The notes under the pieces were generated by a model. It saw nothing but the letters and a program-made list of their open reading frames with translations. It searched no databases and had not been told where the DNA came from. The position numbers and the translations under genes are program-made. DNA of 42,380 nucleotides from a virus, in IMG/VR virus record IMGVR_UViG_3300044946_000428, positions 68,777-111,156 of that record; one strand, given 5' to 3'. The first letter of the stretch is position 1. Each line of letters opens with the position of its first letter. Positions 2,870-38,047 of the stretch are shown here, one piece after another.

Positions 2870-3738
2870 GCCTGATGGAGAGGGCCGCGACGCTCGCGGC
2901 TAGTGCGGACGGGTTCGGCACGGGAGCGTCCGAGGATGTTCCGGCTCTGGCGGTTTACACGCCGATGCCCGACCTGAACATCCCCGACCCGGACCCGAAC
3001 GGCTACCCGCAGATCCCGGTCCACCTCGCGTGGCTGCGTATCCGCGCGGACATCAAGTCGATCGGCAAAAACCGCGAATACAAGGAGTCGCAGCAGGGTC
3101 CGGTGAAGTTCAAGTTCCGCGGGGTCGACGACGCGCTCGAGGCATTCGCGCCGATCACACTGCTGCATGGAGTGAACATCATTCCGGAGCGGGTAGACGC
3201 CTCGTTCCGGGACGCACGCACCTCCACCGGCAAGCCGACGCGCGAATGCACGGTCACCGTTACCTGGCGCATTGTCGGTCCGATGGGTGACTCGTTCGTC
3301 GCCCAGTCAGTCGGCGAGTCGCTGGACAGTGGCGACAAAGGCTCGGGAAAGGCCCAGTCGGTCGCGCTGCGCGTGCTGCTCTTCGGTGCTGGCCTGATCC
3401 CGCCGAACGATCCGACGGTGGACATGTCCACGATCGAGCGCGGCGAGGCGCCAGTGCGCGACGCCGAGTCGTACGTGGCCGAGGTGTTCAACCCGGCGAC
3501 GACGCTCGGGCGCCTGCAGCAGATCTACCGCGAGCTCGTCTCTGCTCGGTTGCGGGATGTCCGGGTGCGTAACGAGATCGGCGAGAGCGAGTCGGTCGGC
3601 GATCTCGTTGTGCGGATCGGCAAGGAGCGCCGGGCGTCCAGCGGCCACGTCGGGCATGGGCCGGGCGGCTGGGCTCAGGACTGCGCGGCGTGCGCGTCGC
3701 AGTCGGCCGCGGACCGCGAGCTGGCGGCCACATCGTGA
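2866..3738 (+). CDS. ERF-family single-strand annealing protein
   Basis: IGKNR...FKFRGVDD...GESLDSGDKGSGKAQSVALR; adjacent to YqaJ. Confidence 0.85.
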   Translation: MSLMERAATLAASADGFGTGASEDVPALAVYTPMPDLNIPDPDPNGYPQIPVHLAWLRIRADIKSIGKNREYKESQQGPVKFKFRGVDDALEAFAPITLLHGVNIIPERVDASFRDARTSTGKPTRECTVTVTWRIVGPMGDSFVAQSVGESLDSGDKGSGKAQSVALRVLLFGAGLIPPNDPTVDMSTIERGEAPVRDAESYVAEVFNPATTLGRLQQIYRELVSARLRDVRVRNEIGESESVGDLVVRIGKERRASSGHVGHGPGGWAQDCAACASQSAADRELAATS

Positions 3739-11386: not shown

Positions 11387-11659
11387 ATGTCCGAGACCGC
11401 CGCACGCCGCTACGCCCGCCAGCCCCTCGATGTCGCCGCTCTCCAGTACACGGGCGCCAACGCCGCCGGCATGACCGCGTTCCTCGGCGCCCATTTCGAG
11501 ATGTACGGCGGTGATGACGCCGAGGTCCTGACGACGAAGCACTGGTCGTGGACGCCGATCGAACCGGGCAACTGGGCAGTCCTCGGGCCGGGCGGCTCAG
11601 TCTCCGTGATGGACGACGACGACTTCACGGCGATGTTCGCGGCGGTGGGCGATGCCTGA
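11387..11659 (+). CDS. Hypothetical phage protein
   Basis: VAALQYTGAN...PGNWAV...DDDFTAMF resembles a common small phage protein. Confidence 0.7.
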   Translation: MSETAARRYARQPLDVAALQYTGANAAGMTAFLGAHFEMYGGDDAEVLTTKHWSWTPIEPGNWAVLGPGGSVSVMDDDDFTAMFAAVGDA

Positions 11660-12095
11660 CCAGACCCGGATCGCGTCGATCAAGGGCAGGCTTCGCGAAC
11701 TCGGCCCGCGCCTCGATCTCGCCCCCGACCACGTATACGTCGGCCGCTGCTGCAAGCGTGGCGGCTGGGACCTGCCGCAGTCGCCGTACCGCAACCCGTT
11801 CACGGTCACGACGTACGGGTTCGACGGCGCGCTCGAACGCTACCGGCTCCACCTCGTGAGCCGCCCGGACCTGGTCGAGCGGGCGCGGGCGGAACTGACC
11901 GGGAGGGTCCTGTGCTGCTTCTGCACGGATCTGTCCCGCTGCCACTGCGCCGTCCTGGCCGAGGCCTGCGACACGCCCGGGGTCTGGCCCGCGCCCGTCC
12001 TGACCGACTGCGGCGACGAGTTCTGGGGCCGGTCCGTGCCGGTCCGACCGCGCGAGACCGTCCGGCTCTCCCGCGATCTCGCACATCTCCTCTGA
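11652..12095 (+). CDS. DUF4326 family protein
   Basis: VYVGR...SPYRNPF...ALERYR...ELTGRVLCCFC...CHCAVLAE. Confidence 0.85.
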   Translation: MPDQTRIASIKGRLRELGPRLDLAPDHVYVGRCCKRGGWDLPQSPYRNPFTVTTYGFDGALERYRLHLVSRPDLVERARAELTGRVLCCFCTDLSRCHCAVLAEACDTPGVWPAPVLTDCGDEFWGRSVPVRPRETVRLSRDLAHLL

Positions 12096-12106: not shown

Positions 12107-12685
12107 ATGACCATTCTGGACGACCCCGACGCACCTGCCCGCGACTGCCTGAGCGAGATGAGCGCCCTGATCAACGCTGCTTTGCCCGATGGCGAGTACG
12201 TCGCGCCCCTCGTTGCGCATGACCTGGTGGAGAAGCTGCGGGTGAACGACCCGGACCTTCTCGCCGGCTGGCTGTGGGAGCGCGCCGAGGTCACGATGAC
12301 CGCGTACATCAGCGACCGGATCAAGAATCGACGTAACGCCAGCCGCGAATCCCTGTCCCGCTCCGCCTTCGCGGGCGCGGCCGAGCGGTTCGCTGCAACC
12401 GGCGACGGCGCCGCGATGCGGGAAGCCGTCGTTCAGCGCCCGTTCGACGCCGAGCATGTCGTCAACGAGGGTCTGCTTCGCCGCAAGGTCGCGGAGATGA
12501 CCGGCGAGGACCACCTGTTCGTGGCCAAGGAGTACGCGGACACGAAACAGACCGCGGCACTGCTGGAGTCCTTTCACCGCGCCGTCGCCAAGAAGGTCGG
12601 CAAGCGCAAGACGAAGGACGTGTTCACCGAGGTTCAGTACGTCGAGATGTACCAGTCGATCACCCGCCGCGAACTGGCTGCCTGA
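12107..12685 (+). CDS. Hypothetical helical protein immediately upstream of the repeat array (candidate partner of the Cas7-like protein)
   Basis: GAAAGGAACTGAG-ATG start context; GC3 bias; 192 aa. Confidence 0.8.
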   Translation: MTILDDPDAPARDCLSEMSALINAALPDGEYVAPLVAHDLVEKLRVNDPDLLAGWLWERAEVTMTAYISDRIKNRRNASRESLSRSAFAGAAERFAATGDGAAMREAVVQRPFDAEHVVNEGLLRRKVAEMTGEDHLFVAKEYADTKQTAALLESFHRAVAKKVGKRKTKDVFTEVQYVEMYQSITRRELAA

Positions 12686-12723
12686 ACGCGCATGACAACC
12701 CTCCCCGAATCACCTCAGCGCGC

Positions 12724-13476
12724 CGACTACTCGAGCTATCGCGTCACGAATCCATTCGACCCGGCCCTCTCCGACTGCCCAACCCTGGCCTCCATTGCGC
12801 TGCCCGGCACGCCCCACATCGACTTTTCACCTTCACGCTGTTCGCCCAGTCCATTTCTTATCGAGGCTGCCCGACTTCCCGAGCCGTCGCGAATCCATTC
12901 ATCCCTACTCGAACCGACTACGCGCCCCGCCTCGCAGCGGCACGCCGCGCCCGCCACTCCTCCCGCTCCGACTAGCCACCTTTCTCCAACGCAACTCCCT
13001 TCCACCCAGCACGGCCCGACTACCCGGCCTTGGCCAGGGTTCGCCCCCGTCTCGATCCGCCACGACCAGCCTGCCCCGCTCAGGGCACCACTCCCCGGCC
13101 CTGCCCGACTTCCCTACGCCAACCCCGTCCTCTCGACCCCTGTTCGACGATCCGTCCCTATTCGTTTCTTCGCAACGCGTTGCATCGCGTGCCATCCCGA
13201 ACGACTTATCTCCCCCACGCCCCCAGACCCCGCTCTCCACCACTTGCCCCGACTACGCGGGCCTTCACGCATCTACTCGGCTCGACCCGCCCTGACTACC
13301 CGGCCCGTCCCAGTCTCCATCGTCCCCGGCGCCATCACTCCGGCCCTTATCGACTACCCAGCCCACCAAGGCTCACATCACTTCTCTCCGACTACTCAAG
13401 CCGGCACGTCACCGCACCGCTCGAACCAATCCGACTACCCGACTCTCGGCGCCCCCGGCCATCGCATCCGACTGCT
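12724..13476 (+). repeat. Non-CRISPR repeat array: 17 CGACT(AC) cores separated by pentamer-periodic variable segments (putative guide-RNA array)
   Basis: Cores at 12724, 12772, 12820, 12872, 12915, 12969, 13017, 13063, 13106, 13145, 13202, 13250, 13293, 13351, 13389, 13432 and 13469; C at position 2 of nearly every intervening pentamer. Confidence 0.88.
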
Positions 13477-13491
13477 CGAAAGGAATCTGAA

Positions 13492-14169
13492 ATGACCTCC
13501 GTCTTCGCTAAGCACATCCCCCAGGCGTGGCCCCACCGGTACGCCGGAACCCTGCACATCTCGACGCTCGCTGGCGGCACCCCGTCCGATCCGAACGTCG
13601 CCGAGGGCTGGCTCAAGACGAAGCTCGCCGACAAGAACGACCTCATCCGCGACGCCGTCGCCGAGGTCATGGTCGAGCGCGGCATCACGGCCGAGGAAGC
13701 CGCGAAGGAACTCGACCGGCTCAAGCACCTCAACGGGTTCCGCAAGGACCCGGAGCGCGGCGGCGAACTCTACATCGAGGGGCGCCAGCTCAAAGCCGGC
13801 ATCAAGGAAGCAGCGTCCGTCGCCCGGGCGGTCGGGAAGCTCCCGGACCGGTGGGGCCTGACGAAGAAGGGCATCGTCAACTTCGTCGCCGAGCACATCC
13901 AGGTCGTCGAAGACCGGCTCTACCTCGGCGTCACCGAACCGAGTGACGTGCTCCAGTCGTTCCCGAAGAACGCGCGCACTGGCCAGACCGGGATCCAGTA
14001 CACGGAGATCATCCGTGACGCGAAGCTCGACTTCACCCTGATCAGTGACCACAAGTTCAGCGACGACGAGTGGGCGATGCTCTGGCTCACCGCCGAGCAG
14101 CAGGGCATCGGCGCGTCGCGGTCGCAGGGCTTCGGCCGGTACGAGGTCGTCAAGTGGGAGCGTGCGTGA
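13492..14169 (+). CDS. Solo Cas7/Csm3-like RAMP-fold protein (225 aa)
   Basis: LYIEGRQLKAGIKEAA resembles the Cas7-group PxIPGSSLKGxxR motif; C-terminal G-rich loop GIGASRSQGFGRYEV; GAAAGGAATCTGAA-ATG start context. Confidence 0.8.
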   Translation: MTSVFAKHIPQAWPHRYAGTLHISTLAGGTPSDPNVAEGWLKTKLADKNDLIRDAVAEVMVERGITAEEAAKELDRLKHLNGFRKDPERGGELYIEGRQLKAGIKEAASVARAVGKLPDRWGLTKKGIVNFVAEHIQVVEDRLYLGVTEPSDVLQSFPKNARTGQTGIQYTEIIRDAKLDFTLISDHKFSDDEWAMLWLTAEQQGIGASRSQGFGRYEVVKWERA

Positions 14170-14621
14170 CCACGCAGTTTGGCGGCGAGGGGCGCCCGGC
14201 AAGTCTGGGCGTCCCGGCCCGTGTGCGCCTGTCCCGGGCCAAGGGTTTCCGTTTGCAGGAGCATGCGCCAGGCGCGGTCGTCGTGCGGCGCCCCACCCGG
14301 TGGGGTAATCCGTTCACGGTCGCGGACGTGCTCAAGGACGACCCGACGCTCACCGAGGTGCAGGCGCGTGAGTGCTGCACCGGCCTGTTCGACCTGTGGC
14401 TCGACGGGCTGCTCGTCGGCGTGGACGACCTGGCGGAGCGGCGCGCCTGGATCCTCGGGCACATCGGCGACCTGACCGGCCGGCCGCTCGCCTGTACTTG
14501 TCCGCTGCCTGGGCCGGGCGCCCCGGACTGGTGCCACGGGGCGGTCCTGCTGCGCCACGCGAACCCTGACCTGGCCGAGCCGGTCCCGGCACTCACGACC
14601 GCCTGGGCGGGCGCCCTGTGA
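14166..14621 (+). CDS. DUF4326 family protein
   Basis: RVRLSRAKGFR...GAVVVRRPTRWGNPF...LTGRPLACTCPL...CHGAVLLRHAN. Confidence 0.85.
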   Translation: MTTQFGGEGRPASLGVPARVRLSRAKGFRLQEHAPGAVVVRRPTRWGNPFTVADVLKDDPTLTEVQARECCTGLFDLWLDGLLVGVDDLAERRAWILGHIGDLTGRPLACTCPLPGPGAPDWCHGAVLLRHANPDLAEPVPALTTAWAGAL

Positions 14622-34976: not shown

Positions 34977-35124
34977 GGTCGCGCCCGGTGTGCAGGTAAC
35001 GGGTACTTCCCTTTGGAGGACGTGGTCGCGGGTTCGAGTCCCGCTCGGCTGCCTACGTGCGGCCGGTAGCTCAGCGGATAGAGCGCGTATGTTCCCCGTC
35101 GCCGTCTTGATCTCGGGCGCGACC
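34977..35124 (+). ncRNA. Y RNA (YrlA-like, tRNA-like domain) 4
   Basis: Terminal stem GGTCGCGCCCG/CGGGCGCGACC; GGTGTGCAG...CTTGATCTC; T arm GCGGG-TTCGAGT-CCCGC precedes D arm TAGCTCAGCGGATAGAGC. Confidence 0.88.
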
Positions 35125-35161
35125 GCTTGCCGCTCCTCCTTCCTTCTCGTGGGAGTTGAGC

Positions 35162-36826
35162 ATGTCGAAGTTCAACCGCCCGGCCGTGAAGCCGGCCGTG
35201 CACTCGCCGATCGCCTCGCAGCGCACTCCGTCCGGTCTCACGTTCGAGGGCGCGCCGGGCTATGCGCGGGACGCCAAGTCGGAGCTGTTCCTGCTCGCGG
35301 TGTCGAACATGGTGGGCGAGAAGACGTTCTACGAGTCCGCCGACGCCCGCGACACCCGCTTCGAGAACCTCGTGCGGCAGGTCGCGGTCGAGAACCCGAA
35401 CTGGTTCGGCCGGTTCGTGCCGTGGCTGCGTTCCGAGGCGAACATGCGTACCGCGTCCCTCGTGGCTGCCGCGGAAGGCGTGAAGGCGCGTCTGGAGGCG
35501 GGCTGGGAGCCCGTGACGGACCGGCTTGTGCCGCAAGTCTTGACGAACCGGCAGACGATCGATGCCGCATGCCAGCGCCCGGACGAGCCAGGCGAGCTGC
35601 TCGCCTACTGGACGTCGCGCTACGGCCGTGCGATCCCGAAGCCCGTGAAGCGCGGCGTCGCCGACGCCGCCGCGCGCCTGTACTCGGAGCGGTCGCTCCT
35701 GAAGTACGACACGGCGTCGAAGGGCTACCGGTTCGGTGACGTCATCGACCTCGTGCACCCGACCCCGGCCGACGAGAAGGCGCGCTGGCAGGGCGACCTG
35801 TTCAAGCACGCGCTCGACCGGCGTCACAACCGCGACAACCCGATCCCCGACGCCCTCGGCATGCTCCACCGGCACGCCCAGATCATGGCGATGCCGGTCG
35901 GCGAGCGGCGCGGCTACCTGAAGGCGCTCACGGGCTCCGGGACGGACGCGCCGGGCAACGTCCTGGCGGAGACTGGGATCACATGGGAGGCGCTCGCAGG
36001 CTGGCTCCAGGGCCCGATGGACGCCGGCGCGTGGGAGGCGGTCATCCCGGCGATGGGCTACATGGCGCTGCTGCGGAACCTCCGGAACTTCGACGAGGCC
36101 GGGGTGTCCGACAAGGTCGCCGCGACCGTGGCCGCGAAGCTCGCCGACCCGGCGGAGGTGGCGCGCTCGCGGCAGTTCCCGTTCCGGTACCTCTCGGCGT
36201 ACCGGGCGGCCCCGTCGCTGCGCTGGTCCTACCCGCTGGAGCAGGCGCTCGGCCATTCGCTCGCGAACATCCCGCAGCTGCCCGGCCGGACCCTGATCCT
36301 CGTGGACACCTCCACGAGCATGCACGCGGGCTTCTCCAAGGACGGCACGCTCATGCGGTGGGACGCGGCGGCGCTGTTCGGGATCGCGCTCGGCCAGCGG
36401 TGCGCGTCGGCGGACGTGGTGTCGTTCTCCTCGGCGCAGTACTACTACCACGACGCTCCGGGCGCGAAGACGAAGGCGTACCCGCTGCGGGCCGGGGAGT
36501 CGCTCCTGAAGTCGCTGGAGCGGTGGACCGGAGACGGCTACTTCCTCGGCGGCGGCACGGACACGGCGGGCGCACTGCGGCAGGAGTTCAAGGGCCATGA
36601 CCGGGTCGTCATCGTCACCGACGAGCAGGCGGCGCAGGACGGCACTGAGGTGACGCGGTGTATCCCGGAGTCGGTGCCGATGTACACCTGGAACCTCGCG
36701 GGGTACCAGTATGGGCACGCGCCGTCGGGTGGCCGGAATCGCCATGCGTTCGGTGGGCTGACGGATCAGGCTTTCCGCATGGTGCCTCTGCTCGAGTCCG
36801 GCAAGGACGGTACCTGGCCGTTCTAG
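35162..36826 (+). CDS. TROVE-domain Ro60-related RNA-binding protein (Rsr)
   Basis: T.EG..GY.RDAKSELFLLAV, LR.EANMRT, QRPDEPGELLAY, TWEAL, MGYMALLRNLRN, SRQFPFR; vWA MIDAS motif DTSTSM; GGTD; IVTDEQ. Confidence 0.95.
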   Translation: MSKFNRPAVKPAVHSPIASQRTPSGLTFEGAPGYARDAKSELFLLAVSNMVGEKTFYESADARDTRFENLVRQVAVENPNWFGRFVPWLRSEANMRTASLVAAAEGVKARLEAGWEPVTDRLVPQVLTNRQTIDAACQRPDEPGELLAYWTSRYGRAIPKPVKRGVADAAARLYSERSLLKYDTASKGYRFGDVIDLVHPTPADEKARWQGDLFKHALDRRHNRDNPIPDALGMLHRHAQIMAMPVGERRGYLKALTGSGTDAPGNVLAETGITWEALAGWLQGPMDAGAWEAVIPAMGYMALLRNLRNFDEAGVSDKVAATVAAKLADPAEVARSRQFPFRYLSAYRAAPSLRWSYPLEQALGHSLANIPQLPGRTLILVDTSTSMHAGFSKDGTLMRWDAAALFGIALGQRCASADVVSFSSAQYYYHDAPGAKTKAYPLRAGESLLKSLERWTGDGYFLGGGTDTAGALRQEFKGHDRVVIVTDEQAAQDGTEVTRCIPESVPMYTWNLAGYQYGHAPSGGRNRHAFGGLTDQAFRMVPLLESGKDGTWPF

Positions 36827-37959: not shown

Positions 37960-38047
37960 TAGACCCGGCGGGACTCGAACCCGCGACCTGCCACTCAATC
38001 ACGGGAGCTACTCGTGGCGGCCGCTCTGCCTGCTGAGCTACGGACCC
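37960..38047 (-). ncRNA. tRNA-like RNA with expanded 22-nt anticodon loop
   Basis: GGGTCCG-TA-GCTC AGCAGGCA GAGC-G-GCCGC[22 nt]GTGGC-AGGTC-GCGGG TTCGAGT CCCGC-CGGGTCT-A; no encoded CCA. Confidence 0.8.

What the first reader, a model, noticed from the sequence alone, without database searches (positions are those of the whole stretch)
12724..13476. Array grammar: CGACTAC delimiters at 5n+3 spacing and a conserved C every fifth base
Core-to-core distances are 48,48,52,43,54,48,46,43,39,57,48,43,58,38,43,37. Ten of the 16 are exactly 5n+3 and five more are off by one. Units parse into pentamers with near-invariant C at position 2 and C-biased position 5. Examples: CGAC TTC ccgag ccgtc gcgaa tccat tcatc cctac tcgaa cCGAC (12872-12918); CGAC TAC tcaag ccggc acgtc accgc accgc tcgaa ccaat cCGAC (13389-13435); CGAC CAG cctgc cccgc tcagg gcacc actcc ccggc cctgc cCGAC (13063-13109). 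Positions 3-4 vary freely. The strand is C-rich and G-poor, so the RNA would be largely unstructured. A period of 5 does not fit codon structure, and CRISPR finders would probably miss the array.
Basis: seen in the sequence. Interest (0 to 1): 0.9.

Follow-up and report, generated by a model that had tools for sequence, protein, structure and literature searches.

The report
Phage VIPR guide array targeting CBASS
The five-base rhythm is a row of about 17 guide RNAs of a phage VIPR system, a CRISPR relative described in 2026; here the repeat is C-rich instead of the published G-rich form, and two guides decode to genes of bacterial CBASS anti-phage operons, so the phage may switch off host immunity by RNA-guided silencing.

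Summary
In detail: spacings are as listed, C autocorrelation at lag 5 has z=6.2, and the fixed position is 89% C (0/5000 permutations). The grammar needs correcting: a unit is GAC-NN-(xxC-NN)n-xxC. Only GAC is the delimiter; the 'TA' of CGACTAC is the first coding NN. The array lies in a temperate actinophage between a conserved helical gene and a lone Cas7/Csm3-fold RAMP gene weakly homologous to SUSP1 Vipr. 38 such arrays in 36 related loci are all C-rich on the RAMP gene's sense strand. The VIPR code (NN, skip one base) decodes them: guides of relatives match the ImmA/IrrE HExxH motif and other vipr genes. Window guide 13352 matches a type III CBASS cyclase family 14/14 in 5 of 8 members; guide 13390 matches 15/16 the end of PDC-S38, once directly upstream of a CBASS cyclase. 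Seven other guides tested gave no secure target. Verdict: VIPR system, new variant (C-rich scaffold, tail-less abutting guides), probably partly anti-defence. RNA strand, processing and silencing are inferred, not shown. The scan had already noted this clade on other DNA, and a CBASS target for a canonical VIPR.

The parts
12107..12685 (+). Conserved accessory gene (candidate vap), 192 aa, all-helical model, no known family or fold match
   Evidence: Homologues in 30 of 44 RAMP loci, nearly all directly upstream of the array; model pLDDT 89 but pTM 0.48; no Foldseek hit at E<=0.001; no Pfam or PADLOC family
12694..12724 (+).
   Evidence: All six NN identical in L025 while two scaffold triplets differ
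12725..13477 (+). Array of 16 guide units GAC-NN-(xxC-NN)n-xxC with 7-11 NN each; GAC starts at 12725, 12773, 12821, 12873, 12916, 12970, 13018, 13064, 13107, 13146, 13203, 13251, 13294, 13352, 13390, 13433, and a closing GAC at 13470
13352..13389 (+). Guide 14 (NN = TA AG AC GG AC AC TC): predicted to target the DVVPVLY strand of a type III CBASS cyclase family
   Evidence: NN identical in L025; 14/14 in 5 of 8 family members, 13/14 in the other 3; HORMA, TRIP13 and SAVED nuclease genes follow in the operons checked
13390..13432 (+). Guide 15 (NN = TA AA GG GT CG CG GA AA): predicted to target the last eight codons (FKGVRREK) of PDC-S38, a small defence-associated gene
   Evidence: Related guides in L028 and L013; 15/16 in 3 actinobacterial genomes; in G217 the gene lies directly upstream of cyclase, E2 and 1TM effector genes
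13478..13491 (+). Ribosome-binding site of the RAMP gene, directly after the closing GAC
   Evidence: Sequence; same arrangement in most related loci
13492..14169 (+). Vipr-like lone RAMP protein, 225 aa, RRM core with C-terminal glycine-rich loop
   Evidence: Best structural matches are Cas7/Csm3 (Foldseek E 1.5e-7; VIA Z 10.2, rmsd 4.3, 156 aligned); family profile aligns to SUSP1 Vipr over 128 columns, E 0.0015, probability 16.6%

Best explanation
This is the guide array of a phage VIPR system of a C-rich variant. The accessory gene, array and RAMP gene are co-transcribed on the + strand (inferred). The transcript is cut at or next to each xxC|GAC junction into 33-58 nt guides without a structured tail (inferred). 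One RAMP protomer binds each pentamer, buries the xxC triplet and exposes the NN (inferred from SUSP1 structures). The NN pair with double-stranded DNA two bases at a time, skipping every third base, which falls on codon wobble positions, so a guide recognises a conserved peptide motif regardless of synonymous change (code supported here by sequence matches). Binding silences transcription (inferred; no nuclease in the locus). Targets are a mix: competing mobile elements (ImmA/IrrE-type peptidase genes, other vipr genes) and, for at least two guides of this window, genes of CBASS or defence-associated operons.
For: Period-5 and 5n+3 grammar. Lone RAMP fold next door, top-ranked ORF of the SUSP1 genome against the family profile is SUSP1 Vipr. 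Same array beside homologues in 36 loci, always C-rich on the RAMP sense strand, also when downstream or distant; SUSP1's own arrays lie on its vipr sense strand. In 17 orthologous guide pairs chosen by overall identity, NN differ at 15-17% and the first two scaffold positions at 23-31%. A guide shared by four relatives, read with a one-base skip, hits over 118 viral contigs, 91 of 118 in frame on HExGH of M78/ImmA peptidases; an extra NN not used in the search predicts the preceding Ala, present in 82 of 91. An L038 guide matches 16/16 the vipr genes of 9 of 37 loci, including this window's, but not its own. Window guides 13352 and 13390 match CBASS cyclase and PDC-S38 genes; around the cyclase family only skip 1 gave perfect matches, none for skips 0, 2, 3 or 1059 shuffles. 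The guanine-reading residues of SUSP1 Vipr (R138, D177, W178) are not kept, while R179 aligns to invariant R210, as expected for a non-GGY scaffold.
Against: No RNA data: strand, processing and silencing are untested. Homology to SUSP1 Vipr is weak (probability 16.6%, single-sequence template). Seven other window guides tested gave only chance-level or ambiguous hits. In unselected DNA sets skip 1 is barely better than other skips or shuffles. The PDC-S38 discovery hit was 1 match against 1 control match. Hits within one gene family are one event, and guide 12873 shows that a multi-copy host family can give a cluster of 15/16 matches. The actual host genome is unknown, so no target was shown in the phage's own host.
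Confidence: 0.85

Rival explanations
1. Same VIPR system, but the guides are the G-rich minus strand (NN-G-g-g), i.e. one of the alternative consensus forms (NNNGG, NNNNG) already catalogued by Yoon et al., transcribed antisense to the operon.
For: The reverse complement has a near-invariant G right after NN and G-biased next positions, closer to canonical GGY/NN. The paper lists NNNGG, YNNNG and NNNNG variants and staggered arrays. DNA targets are the same whichever strand is the RNA.
Against: All 38 arrays are C-rich on the RAMP sense strand wherever they lie; SUSP1 guides are on the vipr sense strand; arrays often start at the upstream stop codon and end about 20-50 nt before the RAMP start, leaving no room for an antisense promoter outside coding DNA; guanine-reading residues are not conserved.
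Confidence: 0.15
2. The system is VIPR, but the CBASS and PDC-S38 matches reflect only competition with other mobile elements that carry these operons as cargo, or are chance; there is no anti-defence role.
For: Published VIPR targets are satellites, prophages and other VIPRs. PDC-S38 is common on viral contigs. Guides are short (14-16 informative bases).
Against: The cyclase match is exact, in frame, on a conserved catalytic-region strand, in 5 of 8 members of a family found in only 8 of 251 genomes, three of them outside the discovery set; both guides are kept between distinct phages. Silencing a cyclase would benefit the phage whichever element carries it.
Confidence: 0.25
3. The stretch is a proline-rich protein gene: ORF 12692-13495 (267 aa) spans the array and overlaps the RAMP start codon.
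For: The frame is open in the window and was called as a gene by an automatic pipeline; only 7% of shuffles keep a + frame open here.
Against: In six related loci all three + frames carry stops; unit lengths and the period are not multiples of three; orthologous units conserve NN, not codons; stops are rare on C-rich strands.
Confidence: 0.03
4. A degenerate DNA tandem repeat or protein-binding site array (iteron-like or slippage product) with no RNA-guide role.
For: Units 1 and 4 share a duplicated segment, and some relatives show internal duplications.
Against: Tight linkage to a RAMP gene across actinophages, constraint on NN rather than on the scaffold, and decoding to conserved protein motifs.
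Confidence: 0.03

Closest known systems
VIPR systems, type II of Escherichia phage SUSP1 (bioRxiv 10.64898/2026.04.26.720920 and 10.64898/2026.04.26.720927)
   Same: Phage-borne two-gene locus (accessory gene plus lone RAMP), pentamer repeats of fixed triplet and variable NN, one-base skip on wobble positions, targets on both strands, some guides against other vipr genes, no self match.
   Different: Scaffold is xxC with only the last C near-invariant, not GGY; 7-11 repeats per guide instead of 9-16; guides abut through a GAC triplet with no structured 3' tail; 16-17 guides (up to about 50 units in L048) between the two genes; guanine-reading residues not conserved; accessory gene has no recognisable fold; predicted targets include CBASS genes.
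Staggered vrRNA arrays and alternative consensus vrRNAs (NNNGG, YNNNG, NNNNG) in the same paper, figs S17-S18
   Same: Abutting guides in one array with a register shift at each boundary.
   Different: Figures are not held, so identity with this clade could not be checked; the listed motifs are G-based and would fit only the antisense strand here.
Non-canonical VIPR-like arrays found by Evo-PIN (bioRxiv 10.64898/2026.10.21.760802)
   Same: Period-5 arrays with non-GGY triplets (examples GAC/NN, CAC/NN) beside Vipr-like folds.
   Different: The text read names no C-rich degenerate scaffold with GAC only at unit starts, and reports no targets.
Class 1 CRISPR Cas7/Csm3 backbones
   Same: RAMP fold with glycine-rich loop.
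   Different: No CRISPR repeat-spacer array, no other cas genes, gapped rather than contiguous pairing.

Membership tests
VIPR | Stand-alone RAMP homologue (RRM core, G-loop, thumb) outside a CRISPR-cas operon | tested here: met
   Fold matches Cas7/Csm3; one RAMP gene in the genome; neighbours are phage early genes
VIPR | Sequence homology to described Vipr proteins | tested here: inconclusive
   SUSP1 Vipr is the top SUSP1 ORF against the family profile (E 0.03) and aligns over 128 columns at E 0.0015, probability 16.6%; the reference X1U2U4 was not available
VIPR | Minimal locus with a conserved accessory (vap) gene, in a virus or provirus | tested here: met
   Conserved upstream gene in 30 of 44 loci; genome is a provirus with integrase, tape measure and lysin
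VIPR | Tandem pentamers alternating a scaffold triplet with hypervariable NN | tested here: met
VIPR | Canonical GGY scaffold (YNNGG) on the guide strand | tested here: not met
   Sense strand is xxC, mostly CCC; antisense would be G-g-g with a purine where canonical has Y. The paper allows 'a related consensus', so this excludes the canonical form, not the family
VIPR | One-base-skip recognition with skips on codon wobble positions | tested here: met
   In silico only: HExGH, vipr, cyclase and PDC-S38 matches are all in codon phase
VIPR | No self-targeting | tested here: met
   No window guide reached the reporting threshold in its own genome; the L038 anti-vipr guide mismatches its own gene
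VIPR type II | Invariant structured 3' tail after the repeat tract | tested here: not met
   Units abut directly; no stable structure
VIPR | Discrete small RNAs that co-purify with the RAMP | not testable with these tools
   Needs experiment; no RNA run could be listed
VIPR | dsDNA binding and transcriptional repression | not testable with these tools
   Needs experiment
CRISPR-Cas class 1 | Direct repeat-spacer array and multi-gene cas operon | tested here: not met
   Only a 3-4 nt delimiter; no other cas gene beside the RAMP

The most novel reading that the evidence does not exclude
An actinophage VIPR lineage with a rewired, C-reading scaffold and tail-less guides cut from the operon mRNA at GAC junctions, used in part as a programmable anti-defence weapon: guides aimed at wobble-proof conserved motifs of CBASS cyclases and defence-operon leader genes silence host immunity at the DNA level.
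Probability: 0.5. Interest if true: 0.82.

Novelty: new variant of a known kind. Interest (0 to 1): 0.66.

Why it matters
If right, VIPR is not only a phage-versus-phage tool but also a reprogrammable counter-defence: one small protein plus a row of 38-58 nt guides could repress several immune operons by their most conserved codons. I found no such role in the parts of the three VIPR preprints I read or term-searched. The guide lists of this large family (1376 homologues) are also a decodable record of which defence and competitor genes matter to actinophages, a way to nominate new defence genes. The guides are shorter than published vrRNAs, need no tail and come naturally multiplexed, which suits gene silencing in Streptomyces. 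The kind of system is already published, which caps the surprise.

Tried and rejected
Protein-coding reading of the array: frames broken in six relatives. Rfam: nothing on the array. Promoter and terminator scan: nothing informative. RNA runs: no RNA holder was listed; no evidence either way. Sequence search of solved structures: no Vipr entry found. L056's G-rich periodic signal is a pentapeptide-repeat gene, not an array. Targets not secured: guide 13294 (one chance viral hit; control level in genomes); 13146 (two 20/20 metagenome hits in 43-45% GC contigs, out of frame, extra NN unmatched); 13064 (chance level; one 16/16 in-frame hit in a PF10910 phage gene of L353 is a candidate only); 12873 (11 hits at 15/16 in one multi-copy host family, motif FEVDHID, zero controls, ambiguous); 12970, 12773, 13251, 13203 (control level or few; 13251 has 15/16 candidates in a GLAYGDALG motif, which from my own knowledge is an ADP-ribosylglycohydrolase signature). 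Guides 12725, 12821, 12916, 13018, 13107 and 13433 were tested only against local DNA sets. Pooled tests on defence-island and control regions showed little enrichment beyond the guides already identified. G:U wobble asymmetry as a strand test: too few cases, mixed signs. Fold search for the accessory protein: no match. Host not identified beyond actinobacterial.

Full report
Observation. The 16 spacings are exact; ten are 5n+3 and five are off by one. C autocorrelation at lag 5 has z=6.2 with 0 of 1000 dinucleotide shuffles reaching it, and the region is the strongest period-5 stretch of the window. In the ten in-register units one position in five is 89% C, never reached in 5000 permutations. 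The strand folds no better than shuffles. Pooling 243 in-register units from related loci gives the grammar: GAC, NN, then repeats of xxC and NN, ending in xxC directly before the next GAC. The last scaffold C is 91-95% conserved, the first two positions are 50-75% C, and the NN carry close to 2 bits of entropy. Two triplets abut at each junction, which produces the 5n+3 rule. CGACTAC is exact in only 7 of 17 cores. One more short unit lies at 12694-12724.

Context. The window is part of a 111 kb provirus with integrase, tape measure protein and lysin; named homologues are in Streptomyces, Streptacidiphilus, Nocardiopsis, Streptosporangium and other actinobacteria. The array fills the gap between a 192 aa gene and a 225 aa gene. 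The second folds as a RAMP: best matches are Cas7 and Csm3 subunits. It is the only such gene in the genome and has 1376 homologues. The first gene has homologues in 30 of 44 RAMP loci, is all-helical and matches nothing known.

Comparison with VIPR. The defining papers describe a phage RAMP plus guides of GGY/NN pentamers that read dsDNA with a one-base skip on wobble positions and repress transcription. Against a profile of this family the top ORF of phage SUSP1 is its Vipr, though weakly (E 0.03; profile alignment E 0.0015, probability 16.6%). The residues that read guanine in SUSP1 (R138, D177, W178) are not kept; R179 aligns to the invariant R210. A later preprint reports non-GGY VIPR-like arrays such as GAC/NN and CAC/NN, so scaffold variation as such is known.

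Which strand. All 38 arrays detected on either strand in 36 loci are C-rich on the RAMP gene's sense strand, including arrays downstream of or kilobases away from it, as in phage Mae-JY09, where the array follows the gene and ends before a strong hairpin. SUSP1's arrays also lie on the vipr sense strand. Arrays often begin at the upstream stop codon and close just before the RAMP ribosome-binding site. I infer a C-rich guide cut from the operon transcript (about 85%). The antisense strand would read NN-G-g-g and could correspond to a published alternative consensus; this is the main rival.

The NN carry the information. In 17 orthologous unit pairs chosen by overall identity, NN differ at 15-17% of positions and the first two scaffold positions at 31% and 23%. 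Window guide 13352 and its partner in L025 share all 14 NN bases while five triplets differ. NN composition fits codon positions 1-2 on either strand (weak, because strong GC3 bias disfavours the other phases anyway).

The one-base skip decodes. A guide shared by L017, L038, L040 and L044 reads, on the other strand, as HELGH(L/I)V(L/M)H. Its pattern hit more than 118 viral contigs, 91 of 118 in frame on HExGH of M78/ImmA-type peptidases, and a tenth NN not used in the search predicts the preceding alanine, present in 82 of 91. By contrast 16-18 base patterns from other guides gave one hit each. An L038 guide matches 16/16 the vipr genes of nine loci, this window's among them, and misses its own gene at the first NN after GAC, which also shows that this first NN is part of the code.

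Targets of this window. Guide 13352 gave two exact hits in 61 genomes of the Streptomyces order, against five for the reversed control; both lie in frame on DVVPVLY of a CBASS cyclase. That cyclase family occurs in 8 of 251 genomes; five members match 14/14, three of them outside the discovery set, and three match 13/14. HORMA, TRIP13 and SAVED nuclease genes follow in the operons checked, i.e. type III CBASS. From my own knowledge this strand carries the third catalytic aspartate of CD-NTases. Guide 13390, with relatives in L028 and L013, matches 15/16 the last eight codons of PDC-S38 in three genomes; in G217 that gene directly precedes cyclase, E2 and 1TM effector genes. The two guides that are shared with other phages thus both point at CBASS-linked genes. 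Limits: members of one family are not independent events, the PDC-S38 discovery hit was at control count, seven other guides searched widely gave nothing secure, and pooled tests on unselected DNA show little skip-1 excess. The real host genome is not in hand.

Mechanism. Shown from sequence: grammar, linkage to a RAMP, strand polarity, constraint on NN, codon-phased one-base-skip matches. Inferred by analogy to SUSP1 structures: one protomer per pentamer, gapped pairing with dsDNA, repression. Inferred from anatomy only: cutting at xxC|GAC, by the RAMP, the accessory protein or a host RNase.

Verdict. A VIPR system (85%), new variant: C-rich degenerate scaffold, GAC-started tail-less guides, an accessory protein of unknown fold, and predicted targets that include CBASS. 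The anti-defence use is the most interesting part and was not stated in the text I read of the VIPR preprints; the scan's own earlier notes had reached the VIPR reading for this clade and a CBASS target for a canonical array, which are leads and not independent support. Interest 0.66.

Noticed in passing
window 35156-36826: TROVE (Ro60-like) gene with a tRNA-like call just upstream at about 34982-35053, consistent with a phage Ro60 and Y RNA-like locus; earlier notes of the scan report four such RNAs.
   Followed up: no
window 11652-12095 and 14166-14621: Two DUF4326 genes flank the VIPR locus on both sides; DUF4326 also lies near the Streptomyces homologue in L058.
   Followed up: no
window 13492-14169: This phage's own vipr gene is a perfect 16/16 target of a guide carried by phage L038.
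   Followed up: yes
L048:2163-3980: Very long array of about 50 units in a related viral contig.
   Followed up: no
L051: Three separate arrays, one upstream and two downstream of the RAMP gene.
   Followed up: partly
L436 (PP395641, Microcystis phage Mae-JY09): A deposited phage genome with an unannotated system of this family: accessory-sized gene, RAMP gene, then the C-rich array and a hairpin. The stated cyanobacterial host is surprising for a family otherwise seen in actinobacteria.
   Followed up: partly
L018 guide at 185 and L015 guide at 3554: Orthologous guides decode to G(E/D)(L/I)DLIV(A/E)K; 16/18 match to a GEADLIVAKHRN motif, which from my own knowledge is the DnaB helicase C-terminal motif.
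   Followed up: partly
window 12742-12785 and 12885-12928: Units 1 and 4 share a duplicated internal segment, a hint that new guides arise by in-register duplication or recombination.
   Followed up: no
L012: The 91% identical homologue sits in a genome bin labelled Burkholderiaceae, probably a mis-binned actinophage contig.
   Followed up: no
window 37960-38047: tRNA-like gene on the minus strand, the only Rfam hit of the window.
   Followed up: no
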